Origin: Fibrobacteria bacterium
Lineage (GTDB): Bacteria; Fibrobacterota; Fibrobacteria; UBA11236; JADFYW01
Direction of reading: 5' to 3'
NCBI GenBank assembly: GCA_965261055.1
Contig: OZ253440.1
Coordinates: 625,564 to 689,563 of the forward strand
DNA length: 64,000 bases
This document shows, one piece after another, positions 5,123 through 33,849 of this stretch. A program made the position numbers and the translations under genes. Each line of letters opens with the position of its first letter. Within the stretch, counting starts at the first letter, position 1. The notes beneath the pieces were generated by a model. It saw only the letters and a program-made list of their open reading frames with translations, was not told the origin of the DNA and ran no database searches.

Positions 5123-5420
5123 GGTGAGTTAACGGATAAATAGGATATATTTTTTGATGATAAACTAAATTATATTTCTTAGAGATTTTTTCTAAACGGG
5201 TAAAGCTTTCTAACCCATTAATGCGTATTAACTGCTTTGTCATCTCATTTTTAGAAATTTCTAACTGTTTCTGTAGTTGTTCTTTCTCTTGACCAAGAAA
5301 TAAATAATTGTTTGTATTACTCACTTTAAGAAATAATGCTCCCATTAACAAACAAAATACAAGAATAAGTAAAGGATAACTTATTTTTCTTCTTACTTTT
5401 ATTTGTAACCGTGCTCTCAT
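5112..5420 (-). CDS. ftsL: Cell division protein FtsL-like (small bitopic coiled-coil protein)
   Basis: 102 aa with a single TM helix followed by a coiled-coil-like region. It sits in the canonical position between rsmH and ftsI, and its stop overlaps the ftsI start. Confidence 0.55.
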   Translation of the reverse strand: MRARLQIKVRRKISYPLLILVFCLLMGALFLKVSNTNNYLFLGQEKEQLQKQLEISKNEMTKQLIRINGLESFTRLEKISKKYNLVYHQKIYPIYPLTHHDQ

Positions 5421-6382
5421 CTTATTTTTTTCATAACCCTTAATTTCGCACTACGAGAACGAGAGTTAGACTGAACCTCCAAGGCCCTTGGAATTAATGG
5501 TTTCTTAATTATTTTTTTGAGTCTCTGTTGTTTACCTCCACACTGACAAATAGGGTATTCTGAAGGACAAATACAATCGTTTTCATATTTTTTAAAAAGA
5601 TGTTTAACCCAACGATCTTCAACAGAATGGAATGTAATCACACAAATCCTTCCACCAACAACTAATTTTTCAACGGCTGATTTCAAGTTTTTTTCAACTT
5701 CTTTTTTCTCTTGATTCACTTCAATACGTATTGCCTGAAAAACCTGAGATAATATTTTAGATTGGTTATAAATTCCTAAAGGATATATTTCTTGTAAAGC
5801 TTCCTTAATCACTGATACAGTTTGATTGAAAACAATTTTTTCCTTTAATACTCTCCCTATTTTTCGTCCTAAGGGAAAAGAAATATCTGAATTACTAAAA
5901 AAACTCTGAGCAATTTCTCTCTGTGTATGAGATTCAATATAATCTACAGCATTTATTTTACTCTCTTGATTCATCCTCATATCTAAAGGACTTTTACCAT
6001 GTTTATAGGAGAAACCTCTGTAAGGTTGATCAAATTGATGAGAACTCACTCCTAAATCCAATAGAATACCATCTAAACTTTCATTAGAACACAAATTTTC
6101 TAATTCTGAAAAACGTGTATGTACTATCTTAATTCTAGACTCATTTTTAAATATTTTTGTTGCTCGTTTAATTGCATCTAAGTCTTGATCTATTGATATC
6201 AAACTCCCTTTAGAGCTTAATTTTTCTAAAATGGCTGAAGAATGTCCTCCGCTCCCTAAAGTACCATCAAAATAAAACCCATCTTTATTTTTGATTAAAA
6301 ACTCTACAGATTCTTTGAGTAAAACTGGTTTATGATAATCAACATCAATTTGTTTCATAACTTTTATAAAATAACTGTTCAA
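5417..6382 (-). CDS. rsmH: 16S rRNA (cytosine1402-N4)-methyltransferase RsmH (MraW)
   Basis: 321 aa with a DGTLGSGGHS SAM-binding motif. It sits directly downstream of mraZ, as in dcw clusters. Confidence 0.9.
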   Translation of the reverse strand: MNSYFIKVMKQIDVDYHKPVLLKESVEFLIKNKDGFYFDGTLGSGGHSSAILEKLSSKGSLISIDQDLDAIKRATKIFKNESRIKIVHTRFSELENLCSNESLDGILLDLGVSSHQFDQPYRGFSYKHGKSPLDMRMNQESKINAVDYIESHTQREIAQSFFSNSDISFPLGRKIGRVLKEKIVFNQTVSVIKEALQEIYPLGIYNQSKILSQVFQAIRIEVNQEKKEVEKNLKSAVEKLVVGGRICVITFHSVEDRWVKHLFKKYENDCICPSEYPICQCGGKQQRLKKIIKKPLIPRALEVQSNSRSRSAKLRVMKKIR

Positions 6383-13152: not shown

Positions 13153-14721
13153 ATGGGTGAAGAACAAAAACAACAACTAGAACAGCAACTGTGGAATATT
13201 GCTGATACCCTTAGGGGAAAAATGAATGCCGATGAGTTTAGAGATTATATATTGGGTTTTATTTTCTTTAAGTATCTATCAGAAAAAATGCACCTATATG
13301 CCAATGAAGAATTACAAAACGACAATATTTTATATAAAGATATAAATGAAAATACTTTTGAGGGTAAAGAATATTTAAAAGCAATTAGCGAAGGATCATT
13401 AAGTAAATTGGGTTATTTTTTAAAGCCTTCAGAATTATTTTCTAATGTATCAGCTAAGGGAAATTCATTAGCAGGGGGCGATACATTTATTCTTCAAGAT
13501 TTAGCGACTATCCTTAAAAATATTGAACAAAGTACACTAGGAACTGAAAGCGAAGATGACTTTGGTAATTTATTTGAAGATTTAGACCTTACCTCAACGA
13601 AGCTAGGTAAAACAGATGAGCAAAGAAATGTTATTATTTCAAAGGTATTAGCTCATTTGGATAAGATAGATTTTCAGTTAGAAAACATTGAGCTTGATGT
13701 ATTAGGAGATGCTTATGAATACCTAATTTCACAATTTGCAAGCGGTGCAGGTAAAAAGGCAGGAGAGTTTTACACTCCTCAAGAAGTCTCTAAAATTTTA
13801 GCCAAAATAGTGACCACAGGAAAAAGTAAATTAAAAAATGTATATGATCCTACTTGTGGTTCAGGTTCTTTACTCTTGCGTGTTGCCAAAGAGGTTAAAG
13901 ATGTTTCGGCTTTTTATGGTCAGGAGATGAACCGAACGACTTACAATTTAGCACGAATGAATATGATACTTCATGATGTGCATTATAAGAAATTTGATAT
14001 AAAACAAGAAGATACTTTGGAGCGTCCTCAACATATTGATGAGCGTTTTGAAGCTATTGTCGCCAATCCTCCTTTTAGTGCCAAATGGAGTGCGAATCCT
14101 TTACATATGAGTGATGATCGTTTTAGCCAATATGGTAAATTAGCTCCCAAGAGTAAAGCCGATTATGCCTTTTTACAGCATATGATACATCAATTAGCAG
14201 AAAATGGTACTATGGGGATTGTATTGCCTCACGGGGCTTTGTTTAGAGGAGCCGCTGAAGGACATATAAGAAAGTATCTCATTGAGGATAGAAACTATTT
14301 AGATACGGTGATTGGTTTACCTGCTAATGTATTTTATGGAACAAGTATTCCTACTTGTATTTTGGTGTTTAAAAAGTGTAGAGAACACAGTGATAATATC
14401 TTATTCATTGATGCTTCTGGACATTATGAAAAAGTACAAACTCAAAATGTATTAAGAGAAAAACATATAGATAAAATTGTAAACACTTATCGAAATAGGA
14501 CGACCGAAGACAAGTATAGCTATGTGGTATCTATGGAGGAGGTGAAAGAAAATGATTACAACCTCAACATTCCGAGATATGTAGATACTTTTGAAGAAGA
14601 ACAGCCTATTGATTTGGAGGCAGTGAGTAATGAGTTGCAATCTTTAGAAAGTGATATTGTTAAGACCGATAAAACCATTGTAAATTTTTGTAAAGAACTC
14701 AATATTAAAACTCCGTTTTAA
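13153..14721 (+). CDS. hsdM: Type I restriction-modification system DNA N6-adenine methyltransferase subunit M
   Basis: 522 aa with an HsdM N-terminal domain, a SAM motif I DPTCGSGSLL and a catalytic motif IV ANPPFS. Confidence 0.95.
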   Translation: MGEEQKQQLEQQLWNIADTLRGKMNADEFRDYILGFIFFKYLSEKMHLYANEELQNDNILYKDINENTFEGKEYLKAISEGSLSKLGYFLKPSELFSNVSAKGNSLAGGDTFILQDLATILKNIEQSTLGTESEDDFGNLFEDLDLTSTKLGKTDEQRNVIISKVLAHLDKIDFQLENIELDVLGDAYEYLISQFASGAGKKAGEFYTPQEVSKILAKIVTTGKSKLKNVYDPTCGSGSLLLRVAKEVKDVSAFYGQEMNRTTYNLARMNMILHDVHYKKFDIKQEDTLERPQHIDERFEAIVANPPFSAKWSANPLHMSDDRFSQYGKLAPKSKADYAFLQHMIHQLAENGTMGIVLPHGALFRGAAEGHIRKYLIEDRNYLDTVIGLPANVFYGTSIPTCILVFKKCREHSDNILFIDASGHYEKVQTQNVLREKHIDKIVNTYRNRTTEDKYSYVVSMEEVKENDYNLNIPRYVDTFEEEQPIDLEAVSNELQSLESDIVKTDKTIVNFCKELNIKTPF

Positions 14722-15825
14722 ATGATGAATGTTAAGTATCATAACAATCAATTTCCACCTAAAATTCAGTTAGATGATGAAATTCATAAATTGATTAATC
14801 AAGCGAGAACAGAGTTAGGAAGATACGATGGTTTTTTATCTTCTATGGTTAATAGTCAAGTATTACTCTCTCCATTATTTACACAAGAAGCTGTTTTGTC
14901 TTCAAAAATAGAGGGGACACAGTCTACTTTAACTGAAGTTTTAGAATTTGAAGCTTATGAAGGAAAACAAAATATAACAGAAGCAAAAAGAAATGATATA
15001 AGAGAAGTTCTAAATTACCGTTATGCCTTAAATACTGCCGTTGAATTATTAAAAACCCTCCCTTTGTCTAAAAGAGTGTTTTTAGCTTGTCATAAAGAAC
15101 TAATGAAAAATGCTAGAGGGAAAAATAAAGTCCCTGACGAATATCGAAAAACGCCCGTATGGATTGGAGGGTCTTCTTTTGAATCTGCTCGGTTTATACC
15201 TATTGATGCTAATAAAATTCCTCAAGCAATGAGTGATTTTGAAAAATACCTCCATAATTCAGATGAGTATGATGATTTAATAAAAATAGCTATTTTACAT
15301 GCAGAATTTGAAGCGATTCATCCATTTTTAGACGGAAATGGAAGATTAGGAAGACTATTAATTCCTTTGTATTTATGGAAAAAAGATTTACTAAGCAGTC
15401 AATCATTTTATATGAGTACTTATTTTGAAAATGATCGAGATTCTTATTATGATGGATTATTAGATGTCTCTAAAAACGAGAATTGGTTAGATTGGTGTAA
15501 ATATTTTTTAAAAGGAGTTATTAGTCAATCTAAACAAAATTTAAATCGAGCAAGAAAAATCACACAACTTTATAATGATTTAAAAATCAAAATTCCTACA
15601 CTCACCAAATCTCAATATGGGATTACGGCATTAGACTTTATCTTTAAGGTTAATTATTTTAAGTCTACTACCTTTTATGAAAGGTCTAAAATTCCTAAAC
15701 CTACTGCAAGAAGATTATTAAAGACTTTAGTAGAAAAAGAAATTTTACAGTATACACCCGGCAGTGGTAGAATCCCTAATTTTTACATATTTAAACAATT
15801 GATAGATATGGCAGATGGAAAATAG
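14722..15825 (+). CDS. fic: Fic-family AMPylase (class II, with an N-terminal inhibitory helix)
   Basis: 367 aa with the canonical FIC motif HPFLDGNGRLGR (HxFx[D/E]GNGRxxR). An upstream SxxxEG inhibitory motif (SSKIEG) is present. The start codon abuts the hsdM stop (TAAATG). Confidence 0.9.
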   Translation: MMNVKYHNNQFPPKIQLDDEIHKLINQARTELGRYDGFLSSMVNSQVLLSPLFTQEAVLSSKIEGTQSTLTEVLEFEAYEGKQNITEAKRNDIREVLNYRYALNTAVELLKTLPLSKRVFLACHKELMKNARGKNKVPDEYRKTPVWIGGSSFESARFIPIDANKIPQAMSDFEKYLHNSDEYDDLIKIAILHAEFEAIHPFLDGNGRLGRLLIPLYLWKKDLLSSQSFYMSTYFENDRDSYYDGLLDVSKNENWLDWCKYFLKGVISQSKQNLNRARKITQLYNDLKIKIPTLTKSQYGITALDFIFKVNYFKSTTFYERSKIPKPTARRLLKTLVEKEILQYTPGSGRIPNFYIFKQLIDMADGK

Positions 15826-15903
15826 TTTTGTGGCTCACTTATGTAACACAAAATAGTTTGTGGCTCACTTATGTAACACAAAATAGTTTGTGGCTCACTT
15901 ATA
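15826..15903. repeat. Tandem direct repeat, ~30-bp unit x 2.6 (TTTGTGGCTCACTTATGTAACACAAAATAG), beginning at the fic stop codon and ending 6 nt before the hepT ATG
   Basis: Three head-to-tail copies are read directly (unit 1 has one extra T, and the third copy is truncated after ...CACTTATA). Each full unit contains the ATG-TAA start-stop pair. Confidence 0.9.
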
Positions 15904-15909
15904 GGAATT

Positions 15910-16326
15910 ATGAATGAAGAAAAATTAGATTTATCAGTTTTTGAAAAAGCAATAGTATCATTGAAAAGAGCATTAGATGAGTATCAAAAAGATGAACAGA
16001 ATGAGTTTATCCGTGATTCTTGTATTCAGCGGTTTGAATATTGTTATGAGTCCGCTAAAAAAATATTAATGAGACATTTTAAAAATACTGAAGATGATCC
16101 TACCAGCTTTGATGAGATGAAATTTGAGGAGATAATAAGATTAGGAGCTAAAAAAGCTTTGTTACGACATAGTTGGGATATATGGAATAATTATAGAGAA
16201 AACCGAAATAAAACTTTTCATAGCTATGATGAAACTATTGCCATAGAAATTGTGGAACAAATACCAAAATTTTATACCGAAGTAGACCATTTATTAGATA
16301 AACTCAAGGGATATTATGAAACTTGA
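15910..16326 (+). CDS. hepT: HepT-like HEPN-domain RNase toxin (type VII TA toxin family)
   Basis: 138 aa with the HEPN Rx4HxY motif (RNKTFHSY) near the C-terminus. Its stop overlaps the start of the downstream MNT ORF by 11 nt (ATGAAACTTGA). Confidence 0.85.
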   Translation: MNEEKLDLSVFEKAIVSLKRALDEYQKDEQNEFIRDSCIQRFEYCYESAKKILMRHFKNTEDDPTSFDEMKFEEIIRLGAKKALLRHSWDIWNNYRENRNKTFHSYDETIAIEIVEQIPKFYTEVDHLLDKLKGYYET

Positions 16327-17329
16327 TTTTGACATCAATAAAGAACAGTTTGCTATTGTTCAAAATGTTTTAGAACAACATTTGCCTGTAGATTGTAAAG
16401 TTTGGATATTTGGTAGTCGTGCCAAAAATACCGCTCAAGATTATTCTGATTTGGATTTAGCCTTAGAAGGCAAGGAAAAAATAGATAAAGCAATCATTTC
16501 ACAATTAAAAGAAGCATTTGAAGGTTCGCTATTACCTTATACAGTAGATATTTTAGATTTGAATGATATATCAAATGAATTTAAAACAATCATAGATCAA
16601 CAAAAAATCTTATTCTCAATAGAAGAAAATAAAGCAATATCTAAGTTGAGGTTTAAAAATGAGAACGGCAATGACTATCCCGATTGGCAAGAGAAAAAGT
16701 TGGGGGAGGTTTTTCATTCAAAGAAAGGTAGCGGTCTATCAAAAAAAAATATAGTTAGTGATGGAAAATATAAATGTATACTATATGGTACATTATTTAC
16801 AAAATATGATGAAATTATTGATGAGGTAATAGACAGTACAAATGAAGAAGGTAAGGTTAAATCTCAAATTGGAGATTTACTAGTTCCCACATCAACGACA
16901 ACAACAGGAATTGATTTGGCTAACTTTACAGCATTAAATAAAGAAGGGGTATTATTAAGTGGGGATATTACTATTTTAAAATTTAATAAAAAAGGTGATA
17001 ATGTTTATTGGGCATACTATTTAACACATTATAAGAAATATGAACTTGCAAGATATGCTCAGGGAACAACAATAGTACATATATATTTTTCTCATTTTAA
17101 AAAAACTCAAATTGAAGAGCCTTCTCTCCCCGAACAAAAAAAGATAGCGAACTTTCTTTGTTCTGTAGATGAAAAGATTGAGAAACTAACTAGGAAAAAA
17201 GAATTATTACAGGAATACAAGAAAGGTATTATGCAAAAAATCTTTTCTCAAGAATTACGCTTTAAAGATGAGAACAACAATCACTATCCCGATTGGGACG
17301 AGAAAAAGTTGGGGGGGGGTGTTGTTTGA
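16316..17329 (+). CDS. hsdS: MNT nucleotidyltransferase (HepT-cognate antitoxin domain) fused in-frame to HsdS N-terminal half (TRD1 + central conserved region); truncated by a frameshift at the G9 tract
   Basis: Residues 1-105 carry the minimal nucleotidyltransferase motif GSRAKNTAQDYSDLDLAL (GS..DxD). There is no stop before LRFKNENGNDYPDWQEKKLGEVF, the HsdS N-terminal conserved start. This is followed by TRD1 and the central conserved EQKKIANFLCSVDEKIEKL. The ORF ends DEKKLGGGVV* inside the duplicated N-conserved motif because of the G9 run. Confidence 0.85.
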   Translation: MKLDFDINKEQFAIVQNVLEQHLPVDCKVWIFGSRAKNTAQDYSDLDLALEGKEKIDKAIISQLKEAFEGSLLPYTVDILDLNDISNEFKTIIDQQKILFSIEENKAISKLRFKNENGNDYPDWQEKKLGEVFHSKKGSGLSKKNIVSDGKYKCILYGTLFTKYDEIIDEVIDSTNEEGKVKSQIGDLLVPTSTTTTGIDLANFTALNKEGVLLSGDITILKFNKKGDNVYWAYYLTHYKKYELARYAQGTTIVHIYFSHFKKTQIEEPSLPEQKKIANFLCSVDEKIEKLTRKKELLQEYKKGIMQKIFSQELRFKDENNNHYPDWDEKKLGGGVV

Positions 17330-17858
17330 ACATAAATTAAAGAGTACAGGAAAAGAAGAAGTTTATTCTGTTTCAGTACATAAAGGTTTAATTAATCAGA
17401 TAGAACATTTAGGCAGGAGCTTTTCTGCTAAAAATACTACCGATTATAGTCTTGTAAAGCCAAATGATATTGTTTATACTAAAAGTCCAACAGGTCAATT
17501 CGCTTATGGAATAATAAAACAAGCGAAAATTAATAAAGATGTAATAGTATCTCCTCTTTATGCTGTTTTTACTCCTGAATCAGAATATCTTGGATATATA
17601 TTTGACATATACTTTGAGTCAAAATATAATACTCATAATTATTTGCATTCTATTATTCAAAAGGGAGCAAAGAATACAATAAATATTACCAATACTACTT
17701 TTCTTTCAAAATCATTTAAACTTCCAATTGATTTCGCTGAACAAAAAAAGATAGCGAACTTCCTTTATTCTGTAGATGCCAAAATAGACTTGGTAAATAC
17801 CCAAAGAGAAAAAACAAAGGTTTTTAAAAAAGGACTTTTACAACAAATGTTTGTGTAA
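17268..17858 (+). CDS. hsdS: HsdS C-terminal half (TRD2 + C-terminal conserved region), in the +1 frame relative to the upstream part
   Basis: ...GGVLFEHKLKSTGKEEVYSV...(TRD2)...FAEQKKIANFLYSVDAKIDLV. The C-terminal conserved repeat duplicates the central one, as in canonical HsdS. The reading frame joins the upstream part if the G-tract is 8 rather than 9. Confidence 0.85.
   Translation: MRTTITIPIGTRKSWGGVLFEHKLKSTGKEEVYSVSVHKGLINQIEHLGRSFSAKNTTDYSLVKPNDIVYTKSPTGQFAYGIIKQAKINKDVIVSPLYAVFTPESEYLGYIFDIYFESKYNTHNYLHSIIQKGAKNTINITNTTFLSKSFKLPIDFAEQKKIANFLYSVDAKIDLVNTQREKTKVFKKGLLQQMFV
17311..17319 (+). repeat. Homopolymeric G9 tract inside hsdS at the TRD1/TRD2 boundary (candidate phase-variation switch)
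   Basis: Nine G are read directly at 17311-17319. The homologous site at the TRD1 start (16701-16708) is GGGGGAGG, an interrupted run. G8 would give KLGGVLFEH in frame with TRD2. Confidence 0.9.
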
Positions 17859-17868
17859 TTAATTATGA

Positions 17869-18924
17869 ATGCGGGAATTACGAATGATGAATGAAACAAA
17901 GAACAATAATTTTAATATACCAAGATGTGTAGATACTTTTAAAAAAGAAGCTGTAGACTTAGAAGCAGTGAGTAATGAGTTGACATTTATTGACCTATTT
18001 GCAGGAATAGGAGGTATAAAACTTGGTTTTGAAAATGCAGGTTTTCAATGTGTCTTTTCTAATGACTTTGATAAGAATTCAAAAATCACATTTGATATAA
18101 ATGTTGCTTTAGATAAGCAAATGATTCTTGGGGATATTCAAAAAATTTCTACAAACGAAATTCCTAATTTTGATATATTATGCGGAGGTTTTCCTTGTCA
18201 GCCATTTTCTGTTGCTGGCTATAGACAAGGATTTAATGATGAAAATGGCAGAGGAAATCTGTTTTTTGATATAGTAAGGATTTTGAAAAATAAAATGCCA
18301 AAAGCATTTTTATTAGAAAATGTAAAAAATCTAAAAACTCATGACAAAGGAAATACAATTAGCATCATTTACCATGAGCTACAAAAGCTAGGTTATAAAA
18401 TTACAAATAAAGTATTAAATACTATGGAATATGGTAATTTACCACAAAACAGAGAGAGAATTTATATTGTTGGTTTTTTAGAGAAAAAATCATTTAATAA
18501 TTTTGAATTTCCAAGCAAAATACCTCTGACAAAAACAATTCATGATTGCCTAGAGAATAAAGAAATTGATGATAAATATTATTACAATGATAAACCTATG
18601 TATGAAAAAATAAAAAATGATATTACTAAAAAAGATACGGTTTATCAATGGAGAAGACAGTATGTTAGAGAAAATAAAAATGGAGTTTGTCCTACATTGA
18701 CTGCAAATATGGGCACAGGAGGACATAATGTACCCTTGGTTCTGAATGGGAAAGGTATAAGAAAATTAACCCCTAGAGAATGTGCAAACTTTCAGGGCTT
18801 TCCCAAAAATTACAAATTTCCTTCTATTGCCGATTCACACCTATATAAACAATTTGGTAATTCTGTTTCTATTCCTGTAATTAATAGAATTGCTCAAAAT
18901 ATGAATTTAGCTTTAATGAAATAA
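17869..18924 (+). CDS. dcm: DNA (cytosine-5)-methyltransferase (Dcm-type, type II RM modification enzyme)
   Basis: 351 aa with motif I FAGIGG, motif IV GFPCQPFS, motif VI ENVKNL, and C-terminal QFGNSVSIPV (motif X). Confidence 0.9.
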   Translation: MRELRMMNETKNNNFNIPRCVDTFKKEAVDLEAVSNELTFIDLFAGIGGIKLGFENAGFQCVFSNDFDKNSKITFDINVALDKQMILGDIQKISTNEIPNFDILCGGFPCQPFSVAGYRQGFNDENGRGNLFFDIVRILKNKMPKAFLLENVKNLKTHDKGNTISIIYHELQKLGYKITNKVLNTMEYGNLPQNRERIYIVGFLEKKSFNNFEFPSKIPLTKTIHDCLENKEIDDKYYYNDKPMYEKIKNDITKKDTVYQWRRQYVRENKNGVCPTLTANMGTGGHNVPLVLNGKGIRKLTPRECANFQGFPKNYKFPSIADSHLYKQFGNSVSIPVINRIAQNMNLALMK

Positions 18925-18926
18925 TT

Positions 18927-20036
18927 GTGTTTTTTAATAATCAAATTGCTAAACAGAAGAAAAAATATCAATCTTTTTTAAAAATTGCTGGTTGTATATC
19001 TAATCTATTTTCTGATTCAAATATTCCCTATCTTTATTATAGAGTTGCAGAAAAAATATTTTGCCGTGCATTTGAAGCAGAAGATTTATCAAGAAGCGAT
19101 GTATCTGCTGATGCAAAGAAAAATGCTCTTGGAATAGGTTTAAAAACTTTCCTACAAGGTAATAATAAAAGTTTTCAAAAAATTGCAGAATTTAATAGCG
19201 ATAGATTATTATATGCGAATCTTGAATCAAAACAACTTGTTGCGAAAATATCAGAGTTGAGAAATAAGAGAATTGAATTTACTCGGAATACATACGAATT
19301 ACAAAATTCAATATACCATTGTATAATTAGAGATTTTGGGAAATTCAAAATCTTTGAAGAACCAATGGACAAAGTGGATATTCATAATATTCGTAATGTT
19401 AAATCCAATAAAAGTTCAATTACTTTTAATGATGAAAAAAATGAATATTCATTTTTACTTGCAAAAAGTACTCTTACAAAAAGATTTATTACGAAACCTA
19501 TTATTTATGAATTTGATGTTGAAATTCTTAAAGATCCATTACTTGAACTCAAAAATATTTTATATCAAAAAGATTTACTACTAGAAACAGAAAATAGAAT
19601 AAAGCAAACTATTTATTTACCTTTGTATGGTAGAGGTTCAACTGTATTTGAGAAAAGTGGACTAAATCAATGGAATGCAGGAGGAAGAGTAAGAGATCCA
19701 AATGAAGTTTATATTCCTATTCCAGCTGAAATTTATAAAAACTTTAAAGATTTTTTTCCCAATAGAGACACTCCATTTAATTTAAAACTTCCAAATGGAA
19801 AAATTATGCAATCTAAAATATGTCAAGATGGAGGTAAAGCTTTAATGTCTTATTCTAACAGAGAGCTTGGGCATTGGATTTTAAGAAGTATTTTAAAATT
19901 AAAAGAAGGAGAATTATTGACCTACGAAAAATTACAAGAAATAGGCATTGATTCAGTGAGTATTAATAAAATCAATAATTTAGAATTTGAGATAAATTTT
20001 ACAAAAATTGGTAGTTATGAAAAATTTATTAAATAA
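18927..20036 (+). CDS. Hypothetical protein; candidate cognate type II restriction endonuclease for the adjacent C5-MTase
   Basis: 369 aa, starting at GTG 2 nt after the dcm stop and co-directional. There is a possible PD-(D/E)xK-like segment EAEDLSRSDVSADAKK. No family is recognised with confidence. The position is classic for an R gene following M. Confidence 0.45.
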   Translation: MFFNNQIAKQKKKYQSFLKIAGCISNLFSDSNIPYLYYRVAEKIFCRAFEAEDLSRSDVSADAKKNALGIGLKTFLQGNNKSFQKIAEFNSDRLLYANLESKQLVAKISELRNKRIEFTRNTYELQNSIYHCIIRDFGKFKIFEEPMDKVDIHNIRNVKSNKSSITFNDEKNEYSFLLAKSTLTKRFITKPIIYEFDVEILKDPLLELKNILYQKDLLLETENRIKQTIYLPLYGRGSTVFEKSGLNQWNAGGRVRDPNEVYIPIPAEIYKNFKDFFPNRDTPFNLKLPNGKIMQSKICQDGGKALMSYSNRELGHWILRSILKLKEGELLTYEKLQEIGIDSVSINKINNLEFEINFTKIGSYEKFIK

Positions 20037-20133: not shown

Positions 20134-22980
20134 ATGACAACACAATCTGAACAAGCATTAGAAAATAATTTAATAGAGCAATTGCTTAAATTTGATAAAT
20201 ACAGTCGTATTAAAATCAAAGGCAAAGCTGACCTACGCGCAAATCTTAAAACACAATTAGAAAAACATAATCATGTTACTTTGTCTGATAAAGAATTTCA
20301 AAAAATTCTTCCTATCCTTAATACAGGAACCGTATTTGAAAGAGCCAAAATATTAAGAGGAATAAGACACCATATTATAAAGGATGATGGAAAGACATTT
20401 TATTTTGAATTCATCAATCAAACAGAATGGTGTAAAAATGAGTTTCAAGTTACCAATCAAGTAACTATAGAGGGTGAATATGAAAATCGTTATGATGTTA
20501 CCATTCTGATTAATGGCTTGCCATTAGTTCAAATAGAGCTTAAACGAAGAGGGTGTGAGATGGGAGAAGCACACAGGCAGATATTACGCTATAAAGATCA
20601 TTCCTTTGCTAGTGGGTCGGCTTTGTTTGAATATGTGCAGTTATTTATCATTAGCAATGGAGTAAATACCAAATATCTTGCTAATAATCGTAAAAGAGAT
20701 TTAAATTTTAAGCAAACCTTTTATTGGGCAGATGAGCAGAATAATAAAATAACCCATTTATCAGAATTTGCTAATGTATTTTTAGAGCCTTGTCATCTAT
20801 CCAAGATGATATGCAAATACATTGTACTTGCCAAAACAGATAAACTATTAATGGTATTGAGACCGTATCAATACTATGCTTGTGAAAAGCTCATAGATAG
20901 AGTTAAAAACACCGATAAGAACGGCTATATATGGCATACCACAGGTAGTGGTAAAACACTCACTTCTTTTAAGGCAAGTCAAATACTCATGCACATGCCC
21001 GAAGTACATAAAGTGGTGTTTGTAGTAGATAGAAGAGACTTGGATTATCAGACGACCAAAGAGTTCAATAATTTTTCTGAAGGTAGTGTAGATGGCACAG
21101 ACAACACCAAAGCTTTAGTAAAACAATTTGGTGATGATACTAAATTATTAGTTACTACTATTCAGAAATTAAATAATGCCATCGGCAGTCAGCGATATAC
21201 TTCTACAATGGAAACATTAAAAGATAAACGAATTGTTTTCATATTTGATGAATGCCACCGTTCCCAATTTGGGGAAACACATCAGCGTATCGTTAAATAC
21301 TTTAATAATCATCAAATGTTTGGTTTTACAGGAACACCAATATTTGCTGATAATGCTGTTAAGAATCAATTAGGTGAAAGAACAACAAAAGAGCTTTTTG
21401 GAGATTGCTTACATAAGTATGTTATCACAGATGCTATTCGTGATGAGAATGTGTTGAGTTTTTCTATTGAGTATGTAGGTAAATATACAGAAAAGAATAC
21501 AAGAAACTATATAGATATAGAAGTAGAAGCAATAGATGAGAGAGAGCTTTTTGATAATGAGGAACGCTTGAATAAAATCACAGATTATATCATTCACAAT
21601 CATGCAACTAAAACACATAGCAAACAATTCACAGCAATGTTTGCAGTTAGTGGCATTGCCACACTAATTAAGTATTATGAGCTTTTTAAAGCTAAAGAAA
21701 AAGAACACAAGTTAAAAGTTGCTACCATTTTTTCTTATTCTGCCAATGAAGAGAATGATGCTGTTGATGGTATCACATTTTTTAATGAAGAGGGTGCTAT
21801 TGAAGATACTCCAAACTCCAAACACAGTAGAGAAAAATTAGATGAGTTTATCGCTGATTACAATAAGATGTTTGGCACTAAGTTTTCTACAAAAGATAGT
21901 CAGTCCTATTACGACTATTATAATGAGATAGCTAAGCGTGTAAAGAATCGTGAAATTGATATTTTGATAGTAGTTAATATGTTTCTTACAGGTTTTGATA
22001 GTAAGCCATTAAACACGCTATATGTAGATAGAAATTTAAAACATCACGGATTAATACAAGCTTTTTCAAGAACTAACAGGATATTAAATAAGAACAAGTC
22101 TCACGGTAATATTGTATCGTTTAGAAACCTTAAGAAAGCGACAGATGAAGCGATTGCCTTATTTTCAAATAAAGATGCTAAAGAGACAATATTACTTAAA
22201 CCATATCAAAATTATTTAAGTGATTTTAATGAGGCTGTAGAGGAGTTAAAACAAATTGCTCCGACTGTAGATAGTGTCAATAATTTATTAACTGAAAGTG
22301 ACGAATTAAAGTTCGTTGAAGCATTTAGAAACTTAATGAGAATACAAAACAAACTTAGTTGTTTTGCTGATTTTTCATTTAAAGATTTACAGATGTCTGA
22401 ACAAGAATTTAAGGATTACAAGAGTAAATACTTAGATATATATGACAAAGTAAATCGCAATAATGATAAAGAAAAAGTATCTGTTTTAGACGATGTGGAT
22501 TTTGAATTAGAGCTTGTACATAAAGATGTTATTAATGTCGATTATATCATTCAGTTACTTTCTCAATTAGTTGAAGCTAAAGACAAAAACTATGAAAATC
22601 AAAAAAAACAAATCTTAGATACACTTTCAGGAGATCTTAATTTAAGAAGCAGAAAAGCATTAATTGAGCAATTTATAGAAGAAAATCTTGTAGGTATTGA
22701 AAATTCTCAAAATGTAGCCGATGAGTTTAAATCATATTGGGATAAGCAGAAAGAAAAAGCATTTAATGATTTATGTGATGAAGAGAGTTTAGATACAAGC
22801 CAAATAAAAGATATAGTAGAAGAATATTTATTTGCTAATCAAGTGCCTGATATGAGAGATAAAATAATGAAGTCTATGTTAAAAAAGGAGACGCTTTTAA
22901 TGCGTCAAAAAACTATCCCAAGAGTAAAAGATAAGATTATGAATTTTGTGAATACCTTTATTGAAGGTATGCCCGCTTGA
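20134..22980 (+). CDS. hsdR: Type I restriction enzyme endonuclease/translocase subunit R
   Basis: 948 aa with SF2 helicase motifs HTTGSGKTLTS (motif I) and DECHRSQ (motif II). It has HsdR N- and C-terminal domains and is the last gene of the co-directional RM array. Confidence 0.95.
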   Translation: MTTQSEQALENNLIEQLLKFDKYSRIKIKGKADLRANLKTQLEKHNHVTLSDKEFQKILPILNTGTVFERAKILRGIRHHIIKDDGKTFYFEFINQTEWCKNEFQVTNQVTIEGEYENRYDVTILINGLPLVQIELKRRGCEMGEAHRQILRYKDHSFASGSALFEYVQLFIISNGVNTKYLANNRKRDLNFKQTFYWADEQNNKITHLSEFANVFLEPCHLSKMICKYIVLAKTDKLLMVLRPYQYYACEKLIDRVKNTDKNGYIWHTTGSGKTLTSFKASQILMHMPEVHKVVFVVDRRDLDYQTTKEFNNFSEGSVDGTDNTKALVKQFGDDTKLLVTTIQKLNNAIGSQRYTSTMETLKDKRIVFIFDECHRSQFGETHQRIVKYFNNHQMFGFTGTPIFADNAVKNQLGERTTKELFGDCLHKYVITDAIRDENVLSFSIEYVGKYTEKNTRNYIDIEVEAIDERELFDNEERLNKITDYIIHNHATKTHSKQFTAMFAVSGIATLIKYYELFKAKEKEHKLKVATIFSYSANEENDAVDGITFFNEEGAIEDTPNSKHSREKLDEFIADYNKMFGTKFSTKDSQSYYDYYNEIAKRVKNREIDILIVVNMFLTGFDSKPLNTLYVDRNLKHHGLIQAFSRTNRILNKNKSHGNIVSFRNLKKATDEAIALFSNKDAKETILLKPYQNYLSDFNEAVEELKQIAPTVDSVNNLLTESDELKFVEAFRNLMRIQNKLSCFADFSFKDLQMSEQEFKDYKSKYLDIYDKVNRNNDKEKVSVLDDVDFELELVHKDVINVDYIIQLLSQLVEAKDKNYENQKKQILDTLSGDLNLRSRKALIEQFIEENLVGIENSQNVADEFKSYWDKQKEKAFNDLCDEESLDTSQIKDIVEEYLFANQVPDMRDKIMKSMLKKETLLMRQKTIPRVKDKIMNFVNTFIEGMPA

Positions 22981-23715: not shown

Positions 23716-24468
23716 TTACGCGTTAATGATTCCTAGAAAATCTGTTGCAACTAAAGCCGCACCACCAATTAATCCTCCATCAATATCAGGTTGTGATAAT
23801 AAATTTTGAGCATTATTAGGCTTCATGCTACCTCCATATTGAATATGGATAAAATTTGCAACTTGTTCTGAATATTGTTTTTTAAACCATTGACGAATAA
23901 AAGCATGAACTTCTTGAGCTTGTTCATCACTCGCAACTTTTCCAGTTCCAATAGCCCAAACAGGTTCGTAAGCCACAACTGTATTGGCAACATCATCTGC
24001 AGAAAGATTTTCATAACAATCTTGTAATTGGGATTCAACAACTTGATTTGTTTTATCACCTTCTCTTTCTTCCAAAGTTTCACCCACGCAAACAATCGCT
24101 TTCAAATTCTCAGAAAGAACTTTTTTAACTTTTTGATTCACAATCTGATTTGTTTCATGAAAATAAATTCTTTGTTCAGAATGCCCTAAAATAACATACT
24201 CAACTCCAATTTCTTTCAACATAGAAACAGAAATTTTACCTGTGTAAGCTCCGTCATTTTCAAAGTGAACATCTTGAGCACCTAATTTAATATTAGAGCC
24301 TTTTACAATTTTAGAAACAGAATCTAACACCAAATAAGTAGGACAAATTATGATCTCAGCATTCTGGACAATTTTAGCTTGATTCACTAATTCAGTTGCT
24401 AACTGTTTAGATTCAGCTACTGTTTTGTTCATTTTCCAATTACCAGCGATCAGTCTTGTTCTTTGCAT
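23716..24468 (-). CDS. tpiA: Triose-phosphate isomerase
   Basis: 250 aa with the AGNWKMN N-terminal motif and catalytic GHSE. Follows pgk. Confidence 0.95.
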   Translation of the reverse strand: MQRTRLIAGNWKMNKTVAESKQLATELVNQAKIVQNAEIIICPTYLVLDSVSKIVKGSNIKLGAQDVHFENDGAYTGKISVSMLKEIGVEYVILGHSEQRIYFHETNQIVNQKVKKVLSENLKAIVCVGETLEEREGDKTNQVVESQLQDCYENLSADDVANTVVAYEPVWAIGTGKVASDEQAQEVHAFIRQWFKKQYSEQVANFIHIQYGGSMKPNNAQNLLSQPDIDGGLIGGAALVATDFLGIINA

Positions 24469-24476: not shown

Positions 24477-25673
24477 TTAGTTTAATTCCTTTAAAGCCTC
24501 TACTCCAGGAAGTTTTTTACCTTCAAGGAACTCCAAAGAAGCTCCTCCCCCAGTAGAAACATGTGAGAGTTGATCGGCAACACCAGCTTGTTCAACAGCT
24601 GCTACAGAGTCTCCACCACCAACAATTGTGATAGCTCCTTTTTTTGTTGCGTCAACTAATCCGTCAGCAACTTTGAATGTTCCTTTAGAAGATTCTTCAA
24701 CTTCAAAAACACCCATAGGACCATTCCAAATGACTGTTTTAGCATCTTGAATCAAATCAAAATAGATTTGTTGTGTCTTTGGGCCAATATCAACACATTC
24801 TTTGTCTACAGGAATTTGTTGAATATCAACAATTTCTAATGGAGCCATTGTACGGTTTTTAAAATTAAATTCAGCCGTTGCTTGAGCATCAACAGGTAAA
24901 ACTATTTTTCCCTCTGCTTTTTTGAGTAAAGCACTCGCAACCTTTAAGCGTTCATCTTCACACAAAGATTTTCCTATTTCTAGACCTTGTGATTTCAAAA
25001 AAGTATAAGCCATTCCACCACCAATAATAAGATAATCAACTTTATCTAAAAGAACTTCTATAACTTCTATTTTATCTGTAATTTTTGCTCCACCTATAAT
25101 TGCAACAAAAGGTCTTTTAGGTTTTTTTAGAGAATCTCCCAAAAAATTTAACTCTTTTTTCATTAAGAACCCAATGCCTTTCTCTTCAAAAAATGATGCA
25201 ATTCCTGCCGTAGAAGCATGAGCTCGGTGAGCTGTACCAAAAGCATCATTAATATAAACAGTCGCTAATTTAGATAGACTTTGAGCAAAAGAAGTTTCAT
25301 TTTGTGTTTCTTCTGGATAAAAACGCAAATTTTCTAATAAAAGTACCTCTCCGAATTCCAAAGATTTAATAGTCTTTTCTGCTCCAATACCAATACAAGC
25401 TTGCACAGTTTTAACCGTTTGACCTAATAATTTAGATAAAGATTCAGCGATAGGAGTCATTCTCATAGACTCAACAACTTCCCCATTAGGACGACCTAAA
25501 TGAGACATAAGTACAATCTTAGCACCCTGCTTAACAAGGTATTGGATTGTAGGTAAAGACTCTCTTAGGCGCTTATCATTTTCAACTTGACCATTATTGA
25601 TAGGAACATTAAAATCTGTCCTAACAATAACTGTTTTTTTGTTTAAGCTTAAATCTTCTATCGTCTTAATCAT
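24477..25673 (-). CDS. pgk: Phosphoglycerate kinase
   Basis: 398 aa of full-length PGK architecture. Follows gap. Confidence 0.95.
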   Translation of the reverse strand: MIKTIEDLSLNKKTVIVRTDFNVPINNGQVENDKRLRESLPTIQYLVKQGAKIVLMSHLGRPNGEVVESMRMTPIAESLSKLLGQTVKTVQACIGIGAEKTIKSLEFGEVLLLENLRFYPEETQNETSFAQSLSKLATVYINDAFGTAHRAHASTAGIASFFEEKGIGFLMKKELNFLGDSLKKPKRPFVAIIGGAKITDKIEVIEVLLDKVDYLIIGGGMAYTFLKSQGLEIGKSLCEDERLKVASALLKKAEGKIVLPVDAQATAEFNFKNRTMAPLEIVDIQQIPVDKECVDIGPKTQQIYFDLIQDAKTVIWNGPMGVFEVEESSKGTFKVADGLVDATKKGAITIVGGGDSVAAVEQAGVADQLSHVSTGGGASLEFLEGKKLPGVEALKELN

Positions 25674-30994: not shown

Positions 30995-31088
30995 TTGTTT
31001 TACAAACAAAACGAATCAAATATAAGTTATTAAATTATTTGGGGTTTTTAAATTCTTAAATTGGGCAAATTAGAAGGCTAAAATATTA

Positions 31089-31960
31089 ATGAGTGAAAAG
31101 AAAGACTTTACATTTATAGACCTATTTTCAGGAATTGGTGGATTTTATATTGCCCTACATAATTTAGGAGGAAAGTGTGTCTTTGCATCCGAAATGGACA
31201 CACACGCAAGAAAAACATACGAGCACAATTTTAAAAAATTATCTCCAGAATTATTTAAAAATAACATGTTCAATGACGACATACTAAATGTAACTTCTTC
31301 CGATATTCCAGATTTTGATATTTTATGTGCAGGATTTCCTTGTCAAACTTTTAGCCAAGCAGATTTTAAAAGAGGATTTAATGACAATCATAATTCCGAA
31401 AGAGGTAATTTATTTTACAATATTGTAGATATTTTAGAAGAGAAAAAACCAAAAGCATTTTTTATTTAAAATGTAAGAGGCTTAATTAAACACAACAATG
31501 AAAATATATGTAAGTTAATTAGAAATATTTTGAAAAATGACTTAGAATATTCATTCTATTTCAAAATAGTAAAAGCATCTGATTATGGTTTACCACAATT
31601 AAGACCAAGAGTATTTATGATTGGTTTTAGAGATGAAGGGTTTATGAAAGGTTTTACTTTTCCTAAAAAGAAATCTCTAAAATATAATATGAGTGGTGTT
31701 TGGGATGGACAATGCAGTAGAGAAATTGGATATACTTTAAGAGTTGGAGGTAGGGGCTCAAAGATAGATGACAGAAGAAATTGGGATGCTTATTTGGTAA
31801 ATGGTAAAGTTAAACAATTAGGTCTCAAACAAAGAAAAAGAATGCAAGCCTGATAACTATGAGTTTCTAGTCAGTTAATACACAAGTAATAAAACAACTT
31901 GGAAATAGTATAGCAATAGATGCCATACAAGAAGTCACAAAACAAATGATAAATCACTTA
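31089..31960 (+). pseudogene. DNA (cytosine-5)-methyltransferase pseudogene (premature TAA in motif VI plus frame disruptions)
   Basis: Motif I FSGIGGF and motif IV GFPCQTFS are intact. The ORF ends ...KPKAFFI* where LENV is expected, and the next codons read NVRGL, so GAA became TAA in ENV. A downstream piece (31530..31853) carries motif VIII-like QLRPRVFMIGF. Motif X QLGNSIAIDAIQEV appears in a third frame near 31885-31930. Confidence 0.8.
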
Positions 31961-32990: not shown

Positions 32991-33204
32991 AAAAAACTAT
33001 AAAGAGAAAATAGGAAATTGTATTTTAAATTAAATTTACAACTAAGATTCTAATACCAGTGACTAAGTATATAAAAATAGCGGAATGAAATAAGCACTAA
33101 AACAAATTAAGAATAATTTAAGCATGAAGCAAGTAGAATTTTACTACAACCCGAATTTACATACCACCAAATACGGGAAGCCAGAGAAAGTTTTAAAAAG
33201 GTTT

Positions 33205-33660: not shown

Positions 33661-33849
33661 ACTCAAGATTTTATTACACTCTGTGTTCACAACAGTTTTT
33701 ATCCAAGCTTTAAAGTCAATAATTGTTCAGATAAATCATAAGCTTTCAGCTTTGCAGTTAATTGCGATTTTTTATTTTTAATTCGTAATTTCATTTCTAA
33801 ATTTGAAATACTATCCTTTAATTTGATATTTGATAAAAGAGCTTCATAA

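What the first reader, a model, noticed from the sequence alone, without database searches (positions are those of the whole stretch)
17268..17329. G9 homopolymeric tract inside hsdS at the TRD boundary: a candidate phase-variable specificity switch (phasevarion)
hsdS is split into two overlapping frames exactly at a run of nine G (17311-17319). The run lies inside the duplicated conserved motif that starts each target-recognition domain (TRD1: AAG TTG GGG GAG GTT TTT = KLGEVF; TRD2: AAGTT-G9-TGTTGTTTGAA). With G8 the reading frame gives KLGGVLFEHK and continues through TRD2 to a full-length HsdS. With G9, as sequenced, translation ends DEKKLGGGVV*. That leaves an MNT-TRD1-central-region half-HsdS, and half-HsdS proteins are known to work as homodimers with a symmetric specificity. 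The homologous site in TRD1 is interrupted (GGGGGAGG). The uninterrupted run at TRD2 therefore looks like a selected slippage-prone contingency locus. Poly-G switching of type I hsdS genes is documented in Neisseria and Helicobacter.
Basis: partly seen in the sequence, partly recalled or inferred. Interest (0 to 1): 0.85.

Follow-up and report, generated by a model that had tools for sequence, protein, structure and literature searches.

The report
Poly-G frameshift splitting a restriction specificity gene
A run of nine G's splits the DNA-specificity gene of a type I restriction system in two, as in a known switch in the gonorrhoea bacterium, but nothing shows this copy toggles rather than being broken or mis-sequenced.

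Summary
A G9 run at 17311-17319 is the only G/C run of 8 or more in the window. It splits hsdS into a 337-aa ORF (16316-17329) and an overlapping 196-aa ORF (17268-17858). G8 or G11 restores one 513/514-aa reading frame.

The anatomy matches the NgoAV switch of Neisseria gonorrhoeae: a poly-G tract between the two target-recognition domains, leaving a complete TRD1 plus central-helix half-subunit. SSRs in hsdS are already catalogued in 7.8% of REBASE hsdS genes. This is therefore a new member of a known kind.

The claim of a selected contingency locus is not supported:
- 0 of 118 relatives have Gly at this site, and the closest relatives read TTG GGA GAA GTT.
- One other species carries G8 here, in frame.
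- No second genome of this lineage exists to show length variation.
- Two multi-lesion R-M pseudogene clusters lie 14 kb away.

The downstream half still shows purifying selection, and no other gene in the window is broken at a homopolymer. Switch, recent inactivation and consensus error all remain open.

The more novel item is a side observation. HsdS is fused to the MNT antitoxin of a HEPN-MNT pair, and this architecture is widespread.

The parts
13153..14721 (+). hsdM (522 aa), intact type I N6-adenine methyltransferase subunit
   Evidence: Pfam N6_Mtase 3.7e-114 and HsdM_N. It has the same length as the HsdM in related loci L024 and L025.
14722..15825 (+). Fic/DOC-family protein (367 aa) inserted between hsdM and the rest of the operon
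   Evidence: Pfam Fic_N 1.8e-25 and Fic 8.6e-18.
15910..16326 (+). HEPN toxin-like gene (138 aa, HI0074/NTase_sub_bind family) with an R-x4-H-x-Y motif (RNKTFHSY). Its stop overlaps the start of the next gene.
   Evidence: Pfam PF08780 4.4e-29. The motif was read from the translation. A HEPN gene sits at the same position in L026 and L027.
16316..17329 (+). ORF A, 337 aa, as sequenced. It contains the MNT nucleotidyltransferase (aa 1-104, GS-x10-DxD motif), a short linker, HsdS TRD1 (about aa 120-268), the central conserved helix CR1 (aa 271-310) and the RFKDENNNHYPDWDEKKLGGGVV tail. This is the half-HsdS.
   Evidence: Pfam Polbeta and Methylase_S. The AF2 model has mean pLDDT 85.7. Foldseek matches the MNT to 1NO5 (45% identity, TM 0.88) and the TRD plus helix to HsdS structures 1YF2, 1YDX, 5YBB, 3OKG and 7BST.
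16702..16709 (+). Interrupted G5-A-GG at the TRD1 start (TTG GGG GAG GTT = LGEV), the paralogous counterpart of the G9 site
17261..17330 (+). Second copy of the 70-nt intragenic direct repeat (first copy 16652-16721, 83% identical). It encodes FKDENNNHYPDWDEKKLG and contains the tract.
   Evidence: the repeat finder family D2
17311..17319 (+). G9 homopolymer, the frameshift site. G8 or G11 gives the full-length gene.
17268..17858 (+). ORF B (196 aa): TRD2 plus the distal conserved helix CR2, out of frame with ORF A. It has no internal stop and is 82-83% identical to TRD2 of L024 and L025.
   Evidence: Pfam Methylase_S. dN/dS is 0.15-0.20 against relatives, and 0.15 between the relatives themselves.
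17869..18924 (+). C5 cytosine DNA methyltransferase (351 aa). Its first ~38 codons (17914-17993) are a duplicated remnant of the hsdM 3' end.
   Evidence: Pfam DNA_methylase 5.7e-94. Repeat families D3 and D5. tblastn of hsdM aa 461-499 against 17887-17994.
18927..20036 (+). NgoFVII-like type II restriction endonuclease (369 aa), partner of the C5 methyltransferase
   Evidence: Pfam RE_NgoFVII_C 2.1e-14
20134..22980 (+). hsdR (948 aa), intact, with an EcoR124_C C-terminal domain (type IC-like)
   Evidence: Pfam HSDR_N, SWI2_SNF2, T1R_D3-like and EcoR124_C 3.1e-67

Best explanation
The G9 is most likely a real +1 slippage mutation in a recently arisen, intrinsically unstable G tract. It splits a type IC-like hsdS gene into an NgoAV-style hsdS1/hsdS2 pair.

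Shown:
- The as-sequenced allele encodes a structurally complete half-subunit: MNT domain, TRD1, 40-residue central helix.
- It also leaves an intact but out-of-frame TRD2-CR2.
- Loss of one G, or gain of two, restores a 513/514-aa two-TRD HsdS.
- hsdM and hsdR are intact.

Inferred by analogy with NgoAV, truncated type IC HsdS proteins and H. pylori JHP0785:
- Two half-subunits pair through their central helices and, with two HsdM, methylate and restrict a palindromic bipartite site specified twice by TRD1.
- The G8 allele would recognise an asymmetric TRD1/TRD2 site.
- Replication slippage at the tract toggles between the two states.

The tract looks like an accident of the G-rich Leu-Gly-Glu codons at the TRD boundary. 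One A>G change from the paralogous TTGGGGGAGGT gives G8, and +1 then gives G9. It does not look like an anciently selected contingency locus.
For: - Tract, frames and rescue by G8/G11.
- The junction reads KLG[G]VLFEHKLKSTGKEEV, collinear with relatives that read KLGEVLFEHKLKSTGKEEV.
- The truncation falls after the complete central helix: alignment to 1YF2, AF2 model with pLDDT 85.7 and helix 271-310, Foldseek matches to HsdS structures.
- CR1 and CR2 are paralogous (119-nt repeat, 71% identical), so CR1-CR1 pairing is plausible.
- TRD2-CR2 has no stop codon, and its dN/dS of 0.15-0.20 equals that between intact relatives. The lesion is therefore recent, or the downstream half is still in use.
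- An indel test on every homopolymer in the window rescued only this gene. The two other flags are adjacent genes: 5417-6382, upstream of the penicillin-binding-protein gene, and the pair 23716-24468 (triosephosphate isomerase) / 24477-25673. The assembly is therefore not riddled with homopolymer errors.
- GG at this position is tolerated in apparently intact genes: Roseivirga G8 in frame and P0009 LGGI.
- Precedent and rates: NgoAV (PMC9577141). G9 meets the REBASE-survey criterion, and tracts of nine are cited there as varying at about 10^-3 (PMC7383803).
Against: - There are no read-level or strain-level data. Every protein of the window, including GroEL, is a singleton at 90% identity on one 1.6-Mb contig.
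- The tract is not conserved: 0 of 118 relatives have Gly here, and only one other G8 turned up in the collection scans.
- Glu/Asp at this residue is 86% conserved, so even the G8 allele may be suboptimal.
- Two neighbouring R-M systems are multi-lesion pseudogenes.
- Not every half-HsdS homodimerises. H. pylori JHP1422 did not yield the expected palindromic motif (PMC3936762).
- The mismatch-repair status of the organism is unknown, because only 64 kb is available.
Confidence: 0.45

Rival explanations
1. Plain inactivation. The G9 is real, but it is a dead-end loss-of-function frameshift. The half-HsdS is inactive or not assembled, the type I system is off, and the locus is at the first step of the decay already visible in other R-M systems of this genome. 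Any reversion is incidental and not used by the organism.
For: - Two type II R-M systems 14 kb away are multi-lesion pseudogenes. One is a C5-MTase with a TAA replacing the Glu of the ENV motif, plus HpaII-like REase scraps at 31.0-33.0 kb. The other is D12-MTase and EcoRV-like scraps at 34.0-35.2 kb.
- The tract is unique to this lineage.
- The G8 state already replaces a residue that is acidic in 86% of relatives.
- The locus is a mosaic with an hsdM-tail remnant, which shows past rearrangement.
Against: - There is only one lesion in the whole 10-kb type I locus. hsdM, hsdR, HEPN, Fic, dcm and the REase are all intact.
- TRD2-CR2 has no stops, and its dN/dS is as low as in intact relatives.
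- The truncation leaves exactly the unit shown to be active in NgoAV (PMC9577141).
Confidence: 0.3
2. Consensus or assembly homopolymer error. The true sequence is G8 and hsdS is an ordinary intact 513-aa MNT::HsdS gene.
For: - A single-base correction gives a perfect full-length gene with a purifying-selection signature.
- Long G runs are a classic failure point for several sequencing chemistries.
- The one other metagenomic hsdS hit with G8 (L002) lies in a contig full of frameshifts, which shows how such artefacts look.
- In a mixed population the assembler reports only the modal length.
Against: - None of the roughly 95 A/T runs of 7 or more in the window breaks a gene.
- The pseudogenes present carry substitutions and multiple lesions, not homopolymer indels.
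- The same 337-aa product is recorded from both the NCBI and ENA copies, though these are probably the same assembly.
Confidence: 0.2
3. Split but complete. Both halves are translated, ORF B from the ATG at 17268 or from the GTG/TTG at 17319-17324 by re-initiation next to the ORF A stop. They reassemble non-covalently into a normal two-TRD specificity unit, so the frameshift changes little.
For: - ORF B is intact and has an in-frame ATG.
- Possible start codons lie within 10 nt of the ORF A stop.
- From my own recollection, not checked here: reconstitution of wild-type specificity by co-expressed HsdS halves was reported for the type IC enzyme EcoDXXI.
Against: - In NgoAV, hsdS2 gives no active protein (PMC9577141).
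- ORF B would lack the conserved RFK..YPDW..KKL segment or carry 14 out-of-frame residues.
- No recognisable translation signal was tested or found. The promoter scan was at chance level.
Confidence: 0.05

Closest known systems
NgoAV type I R-M system of Neisseria gonorrhoeae FA1090 (hsdS1/hsdS2 split by a poly-G tract)
   Same: - A poly-G tract lies at the 3' end of the first half of hsdS, between the two TRDs.
- The frameshifted allele gives an N-terminal half-HsdS: 208 of 410 aa there, and TRD1 plus CR1 here.
- Deleting one G fuses the two ORFs into a two-TRD HsdS with a different specificity: GCAN8TGC versus GCAN7STCA (PMC9577141).
- My recollection that NgoAV is a type IC system, matching the EcoR124_C-type HsdR here, is not checked.
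   Different: - NgoAV has documented tract polymorphism: 6-9 G across 92 strains, with experimentally shown specificities and a regulon. Here there is a single genome and no experiment.
- The tract here is G9, against a modal G7 there.
- HsdS here carries an N-terminal MNT domain.
- The operon here is interrupted by Fic, HEPN and a type II R-M pair.
- The host is an uncultured-looking deep FCB-group lineage (GroEL at most 76% identical to anything), not a host-adapted pathogen.
SSR-containing hsdS genes catalogued in REBASE (Atack et al. 2020, FASEB J, PMC7383803), e.g. the Salmonella enterica serovar India G[12] hsdS and the Mannheimia haemolytica G[n] hsdS
   Same: A mononucleotide tract of at least 9, located between the two TRD coding regions, predicted to toggle between a full-length and a truncated HsdS. 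The survey found this in 1838 of 23,558 hsdS genes (7.8%), always between the TRDs.
   Different: The best-supported catalogue entries show tract-length ranges across strains. This one cannot be compared with any other strain, and its orthologous site in relatives is not a repeat.
Natural and engineered single-TRD (half) HsdS proteins, e.g. H. pylori JHP0785. From recollection, truncated EcoDXXI and EcoR124I HsdS.
   Same: A single TRD plus one conserved helix dimerises and specifies a palindromic bipartite site. JHP0785 gives RTAYN5RTAY (PMC3936762).
   Different: Those proteins are stable alleles or laboratory deletions, not SSR-driven. The same paper shows that a half-site palindrome was not obtained for JHP1422, so activity of a half-subunit cannot be assumed.
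PrrC-EcoprrI and RloC: HEPN-type RNase toxins embedded in type I R-M operons (analogy for the HEPN + MNT::HsdS context only)
   Same: A HEPN-family toxin gene sits inside a type I (type IC-like) R-M operon, often together with Fic/Doc-like genes (Table 1 of PMC3710099). This suggests a toxin held in check by the R-M complex.
   Different: PrrC is an ABC-ATPase-HEPN anticodon nuclease that binds EcoprrI non-covalently. Here the toxin is a small HI0074-type HEPN, and its MNT antitoxin partner is covalently fused to HsdS. No functional link was tested.

Membership tests
Type I R-M specificity subunit (HsdS, Pfam PF01420) | Two target-recognition domains separated and followed by conserved helical regions | tested here: met
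   Methylase_S hits on both ORFs. The G8 reconstruction aligns over both halves of M. jannaschii HsdS 1YF2. CR1/CR2 and the linker repeats are present. The AF2 model and Foldseek agree.
Type I R-M specificity subunit (HsdS, Pfam PF01420) | Encoded with hsdM and hsdR in one locus | tested here: met
   hsdM at 13153-14721 and hsdR at 20134-22980, both full length.
Type IC (EcoR124I-like) family | HsdR with the EcoR124-type C-terminal domain. Subunit complementation with type IC enzymes. | tested here: inconclusive
   EcoR124_C domain 3.1e-67 in HsdR, and a Foldseek hit to EcoR124I HsdS 7BST. Complementation and antibody cross-reaction, which define the families, cannot be tested in silico.
SSR-driven phase-variable hsdS (NgoAV type) | Homopolymer or SSR of mutable length (at least 9 for mononucleotides in the REBASE survey) located between the TRDs | tested here: met
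   G9 at 17311-17319, at the first residues of TRD2. Criterion from PMC7383803.
SSR-driven phase-variable hsdS (NgoAV type) | One tract length gives a full-length two-TRD HsdS, and another gives a truncated TRD1-only HsdS that retains the central helix | tested here: met
   In-silico G6-G12 series. Helix 271-310 is retained in the 337-aa product.
SSR-driven phase-variable hsdS (NgoAV type) | Tract length differs among strains, isolates or reads of the same gene | not testable with these tools
   Both ORFs and all other window proteins are singleton clusters from one contig. The genome is absent from the contig look-up and from the collection scans.
SSR-driven phase-variable hsdS (NgoAV type) | The repeat is a conserved feature of the orthologous gene, as evidence of selection for mutability | tested here: not met
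   0 of 118 relatives have Gly at this residue. L024 and L025 read TTG GGA GAA GTT. The pattern scan found only Roseivirga (G8, in frame) and one poor-quality contig. The DNA pattern covers only about 21% of such sites by amino-acid context.
SSR-driven phase-variable hsdS (NgoAV type) | Both protein forms give active methyltransferases with different specificities | not testable with these tools
   This needs a methylome or heterologous expression.
Phasevarion (phase-variable regulon) | Switching of the methyltransferase changes expression of a set of genes | not testable with these tools
   No expression or methylation data are available. This is conjecture only.
HEPN-MNT (type VII) toxin-antitoxin pair | An MNT with the GS-x(9-13)-D-x-D motif, next to and overlapping a HEPN gene with R-x4-H(-x-Y) | tested here: met
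   - MNT motif GSRAKNTAQDYSDLD and HEPN motif RNKTFHSY were read from the translations.
- Pfam PF18765/PF01909 and PF08780.
- The MNT fold matches HI0073 (1NO5, 45% identity) and MntA antitoxins.
- The genes overlap at 16316-16326.
- Toxicity and AMPylation were not tested.

The most novel reading that the evidence does not exclude
The hsdS gene belongs to a widespread, apparently undescribed architecture. The MNT antitoxin of a HEPN-MNT toxin-antitoxin pair is covalently fused to the N-terminus of the type I specificity subunit, with the HEPN RNase gene overlapping just upstream.

If the fusion couples the two systems, the integrity or occupancy of the methyltransferase/restriction complex would control a HEPN RNase. 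That would be a PrrC-like abortive-infection backup, triggered for example by phage anti-restriction proteins. The G-tract switch would then operate on an MNT-tethered subunit, and both the half and the full form keep the antitoxin.

The recurrence of the architecture is shown. The coupling is inference.
Probability: 0.25. Interest if true: 0.7.

Novelty: new member of a known kind. Interest (0 to 1): 0.3.

Why it matters
If the tract does toggle, one base of slippage would re-target both methylation and restriction of a type I system. That would be in a free-living or uncultured FCB-group lineage, far from the host-adapted pathogens where such switches have been studied. It would extend the reach of SSR-driven specificity switching, although the mechanism is already known (NgoAV) and catalogued at scale in REBASE.

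The practical value of the present analysis is mainly negative. The tract is a lineage-specific accident of G-rich codons, not a conserved contingency locus, and it cannot yet be distinguished from inactivation or a consensus error.

The wider return is the context. Type I operons here act as landing pads for other defence genes (Fic, HEPN-MNT, a type II R-M pair). The MNT::HsdS fusion is common enough to deserve its own study.

Tried and rejected
1. Strain-level tract variation. Exact look-ups of ORF A, ORF B, HsdM, HsdR, GroEL and others gave singleton clusters only. The look-up of encoding contigs had no record for ORF A or HsdM.
2. Recurrence of the tract. The DNA pattern TGG-NNN-GAR-AAR-ARR-YTG8 found one hit in genome contigs, Roseivirga with G8 in frame. 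It found 22 hits in metagenome contigs, of which 20 are not hsdS, one is a frameshift-riddled hsdS contig and none is the window's organism. The pattern samples only about 21% of such sites.
3. Truncated MNT::HsdS representatives (P0269, P0279, P0295, P0301, P0397, P0326). They end in out-of-frame junk from breaks inside the conserved helix, not at a G tract, so there is no recurrent truncation at the TRD2 boundary.
4. Recombinational hsdS switching (shufflon). No second hsdS copy or fragment exists in the window. Rejected.
5. Programmed ribosomal frameshifting. Restoring the frame from G9 needs +1. The 0-frame stop lies three codons beyond the tract, not adjacent, and -1 slippage on G GGG GGG leads to the dead-end GGCCLNIN* frame. 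Rejected as a designed signal. Low-level transcriptional or translational slippage cannot be excluded.
6. The promoter/terminator scan was at chance level (58 found against 57 expected). Rfam found only two tRNAs.
7. Alignment A2 (ORF A against standalone HsdS) mis-paired the MNT with TRD1 of relatives and was not used for modelling. A3, made of fusion proteins, was used instead.
8. The organism could not be named. The best GroEL match is 76% to a Fibrobacteria MAG, with about 70% to Cytophagales.
9. Literature searches for a described MNT-HsdS fusion found none in the held library.
Full report
**Observation**

The window has 30.8% GC. It contains exactly one G or C run of 8 or more: G9 at 17311-17319. 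In dinucleotide-preserving shuffles a G9 appears 0.03 times per window, or roughly 0.75 times per 1.6-Mb genome. The run is therefore unusual but not statistically overwhelming by itself.

The run splits hsdS into two ORFs:
- ORF A, 16316-17329, 337 aa, ending ...DEKKLGGGVV*.
- ORF B, 17268-17858, 196 aa.

Editing the tract in silico shows that G8 and G11 give one ORF of 513/514 aa. All other lengths from 6 to 12 terminate within 3-7 codons.

The site lies in a 70-nt intragenic direct repeat, 16652-16721 versus 17261-17330, 83% identical. This repeat precedes each target-recognition domain. The first copy carries the interrupted G5AGG (TTG GGG GAG GTT).

**What the locus is**

Pfam assigns the following genes:

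| Coordinates | Gene |
|---|---|
| 13153-14721 | hsdM |
| 14722-15825 | Fic-family gene |
| 15910-16326 | HEPN gene of the HI0074/NTase_sub_bind family |
| 16316-17329 | ORF A, with an N-terminal MNT nucleotidyltransferase and a Methylase_S domain |
| 17268-17858 | ORF B (Methylase_S) |
| 17869-18924 | C5 cytosine methyltransferase |
| 18927-20036 | NgoFVII-like endonuclease |
| 20134-22980 | hsdR with an EcoR124_C domain |

This is a type IC-like type I operon into which other defence genes have been inserted. No other hsdS copy exists in the window, so recombinational switching is excluded.

All proteins of the window, including GroEL, SecDF and CarB, are singletons at 90% identity and come from one 1,596,744-bp contig. 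The best GroEL match is 76% to a Fibrobacteria MAG, with about 70% to Cytophagales. The host is a deep FCB-group lineage with no sequenced close relative.

**Anatomy of the two products**

The G8 reconstruction aligns to both halves of the M. jannaschii HsdS structure 1YF2. The tract falls at the first residues of TRD2, after the central helix.

An AlphaFold2 model of ORF A was built on an alignment of 36 fusion proteins and has mean pLDDT 85.7. It shows:
- an MNT domain (aa 1-100, pLDDT above 90),
- a disordered linker (aa 105-109),
- a TRD,
- an uninterrupted helix at aa 271-310.

Foldseek matches the MNT to HI0073 (1NO5, 45% identity, TM 0.88) and to MntA antitoxins. It matches the TRD plus helix to HsdS structures 1YF2, 1YDX, 5YBB, 3OKG and 7BST. 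The truncated product is thus a complete half-subunit. ORF B is an uninterrupted TRD2 plus distal helix.

**Origin of the tract**

Relatives that share TRD2 at 75-83% identity read KLGEVLFEHKLKSTGKEEV, or LEEV, LNEV or LGDV, at the junction. The G8 allele reads KLGGVLFEHK....

Among 118 relatives the residue replaced by Gly is Glu in 67 and Asp in 35, and never Gly. At the TRD1 site Gly occurs once in 86.

The two closest relatives with DNA available read TTG GGA GAA GTT (L024, L025). The window's own TRD1 copy reads TTG GGG GAG GTT. G8 is therefore one A>G change from the paralogous copy, or three from the orthologous codons, and G9 is a further +1.

GGG is only 11% of Gly codons and TTG only 16% of Leu codons in the window's housekeeping genes. 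The G-richness is thus mildly against the compositional grain. It is shared by the uninterrupted and the interrupted site, however, so it is not evidence of selection for a repeat.

A scan for G8 or longer in the context W-x-E-K-[KR]-L gave:
- one hit in 185,579 species genomes, the Roseivirga echinicomitans hsdS with G8 in frame and TRD2 open;
- 22 hits in JGI metagenomes, of which only one is hsdS, and that lies in a contig full of frameshifts.

The pattern covers about a fifth of such sites. The tract is sporadic, not a conserved feature of the family.

**Is the lesion real, recent or reversible?**

An indel test on every homopolymer of the window rescued only this gene. Two other flags are simply adjacent genes. 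About 95 A/T runs of 7 or more leave their genes intact. The assembly does not suffer from general homopolymer errors, though a single miscalled G9 cannot be excluded.

TRD2-CR2 has dN/dS 0.15-0.20 against L024 and L025, the same as those two against each other at 0.15. The downstream half has not drifted as a pseudogene. The frameshift is therefore recent, or reversible, or absent from the real DNA.

Against an adaptive reading, the window also holds two type II R-M systems that are multi-lesion pseudogenes:
- a C5 methyltransferase with a TAA in place of the Glu of the ENV motif, plus HpaII-like endonuclease scraps (31.0-33.0 kb);
- D12 methyltransferase and EcoRV-like scraps (34.0-35.2 kb).

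R-M decay is clearly ongoing in this genome.

**Comparison with what is known**

NgoAV of N. gonorrhoeae is an exact mechanistic precedent. Its features are (PMC9577141):
- a poly-G tract at the 3' end of hsdS1,
- a 208-aa half HsdS recognising GCAN8TGC,
- deletion of one G fuses hsdS1 and hsdS2 and changes the site to GCAN7STCA,
- 6-9 G across 92 strains.

A REBASE survey found SSRs passing a threshold of 9 or more for mononucleotides in 7.8% of 23,558 hsdS genes, always between the TRDs. It cites rates of about 10^-3 for tracts of nine (PMC7383803).

A natural single-TRD HsdS that recognises a palindrome is documented in H. pylori (JHP0785). In the same study another half-site palindrome was not obtained (JHP1422). 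The homopolymer-driven specificity switch shown there concerns a Type IIG enzyme, not hsdS (PMC3936762).

On the membership test for an NgoAV-type switch, the structural criteria are met. The conservation criterion is not met. The polymorphism and activity criteria cannot be tested here.

**Verdict**

The most likely single account, at 0.45, is a real +1 slip in a recently and accidentally formed, intrinsically mutable G tract. This produces an NgoAV-like hsdS1/hsdS2 arrangement that can in principle toggle between a palindromic and an asymmetric specificity.

The rivals are:
- plain inactivation (0.30),
- consensus error (0.20),
- reassembly of separately translated halves (0.05).

This is a new member of a known kind, with interest about 0.3.

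**Side finding: the MNT::HsdS fusion**

ORF A is an in-frame fusion of an MNT antitoxin-type nucleotidyltransferase to HsdS, and the HEPN gene overlaps its start.

- The same hsdM - HEPN - MNT::HsdS - hsdR order occurs in two unrelated contigs whose proteins are only 34-35% identical to the window's.
- A phmmer search with the first 137 residues against 1.84 billion cluster representatives returned 89 proteins of 400 aa or more among the best 149.
- 10 of 10 of these that were tested carry MNT plus Methylase_S.
- The junction, FP(L) followed by a short linker and then PKLRF, is conserved in 36 of them.
- The MNT (GS-x10-DxD) and HEPN (R-x4-H-x-Y) motifs are intact.
- I found no description of this fusion in the searchable literature.

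By analogy with PrrC-EcoprrI, this may tether a toxin-antitoxin switch to the type I complex. That is untested inference.

Noticed in passing
window 15910-17329; L026 2225-4193; L027 7586-9512: HsdS is fused in frame to the MNT antitoxin of a HEPN-MNT pair, and the HEPN gene overlaps upstream. The architecture is widespread. 89 of the best 149 MNT cluster representatives are 400 aa or longer, 10 of 10 tested are MNT plus Methylase_S, and the junction is conserved in 36 sequences. No description was found in the searchable literature.
   Followed up: partly
L027 9536-13129: In one related locus a second HEPN gene is followed by an MNT fused to the HSDR_N nuclease domain (413 aa). The rest of hsdR follows as a separate 640-aa ORF. 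MNT fusion is therefore not limited to the S subunit.
   Followed up: no
window 31000-35200: An R-M graveyard of two type II systems reduced to multi-lesion pseudogenes. The first is a C5-MTase (31089-31853, with a TAA replacing the Glu of the ENV motif at 31467-31469) with HpaII-like REase scraps. The second, on the minus strand, is D12 N6A-MTase scraps with an EcoRV-like REase scrap.
   Followed up: partly
window 17914-17993 versus 14566-14648: The first ~38 codons of the C5 methyltransferase ORF are a diverged duplicate (73-83% nt identity) of the hsdM 3' end, fused in frame to methyltransferase motif I (..NIPRCVDTFKKEAVDLEAVSNELTFIDLFAGIGG). This is a recombination scar showing that the locus is a mosaic.
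   Followed up: partly
window 15819-15902: A near-perfect 30-bp tandem repeat, 2.8 copies, with unit AAAATAGTTTGTGGCTCACTTATGTAACAC. It fills the gap between the fic stop and the HEPN start. Its function is unknown; it may be an insertion junction or a regulatory site.
   Followed up: no
L001 411-435 (Roseivirga echinicomitans KMM 6058, NZ_LRDB01000014.1): This is the only clean G8-or-longer tract found at the homologous site in the genome and metagenome scans. It is a G8, in frame (WEEKRLGGVIEFF), at the TRD2 start of an apparently intact hsdS next to hsdM. It shows that the pre-frameshift state exists elsewhere.
   Followed up: partly
window 16640-16720: The N-terminal HsdS segment of the window protein (KLRFKNENGNDYPDWQEKKLGEVF) is of the central-linker type (RFKDxNGNxYPDW), not the usual N-terminal type (PKLRFxEFxGxW). 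The same holds in P0117, P0252, P0254 and others. This suggests TRD cassettes moved together with their upstream linker.
   Followed up: no
window 17602-17630: A perfect 12/12 sigma-70 consensus (TTGACA, 17 nt, TATAAT) lies inside the TRD2 coding region, about 240 nt upstream of the C5 methyltransferase gene. It may be a promoter for the inserted type II pair. Overall promoter-like counts are at chance level, and the host's promoter type is unknown.
   Followed up: no
window 4045-4051: The only other G/C run of 7 or more is a C7 on the + strand, which is G7 on the coding strand of the 591-aa penicillin-binding-protein gene (3347-5122, minus strand). It is in frame.
   Followed up: no
whole window: Every protein tested, including GroEL, SecDF, CarB, UvrD and PBP, is a singleton at 90% identity from one 1,596,744-bp contig. 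The best GroEL match is 76% to a Fibrobacteria MAG. The genome represents a deep, otherwise unsampled FCB-group lineage with a small, AT-rich genome.
   Followed up: partly
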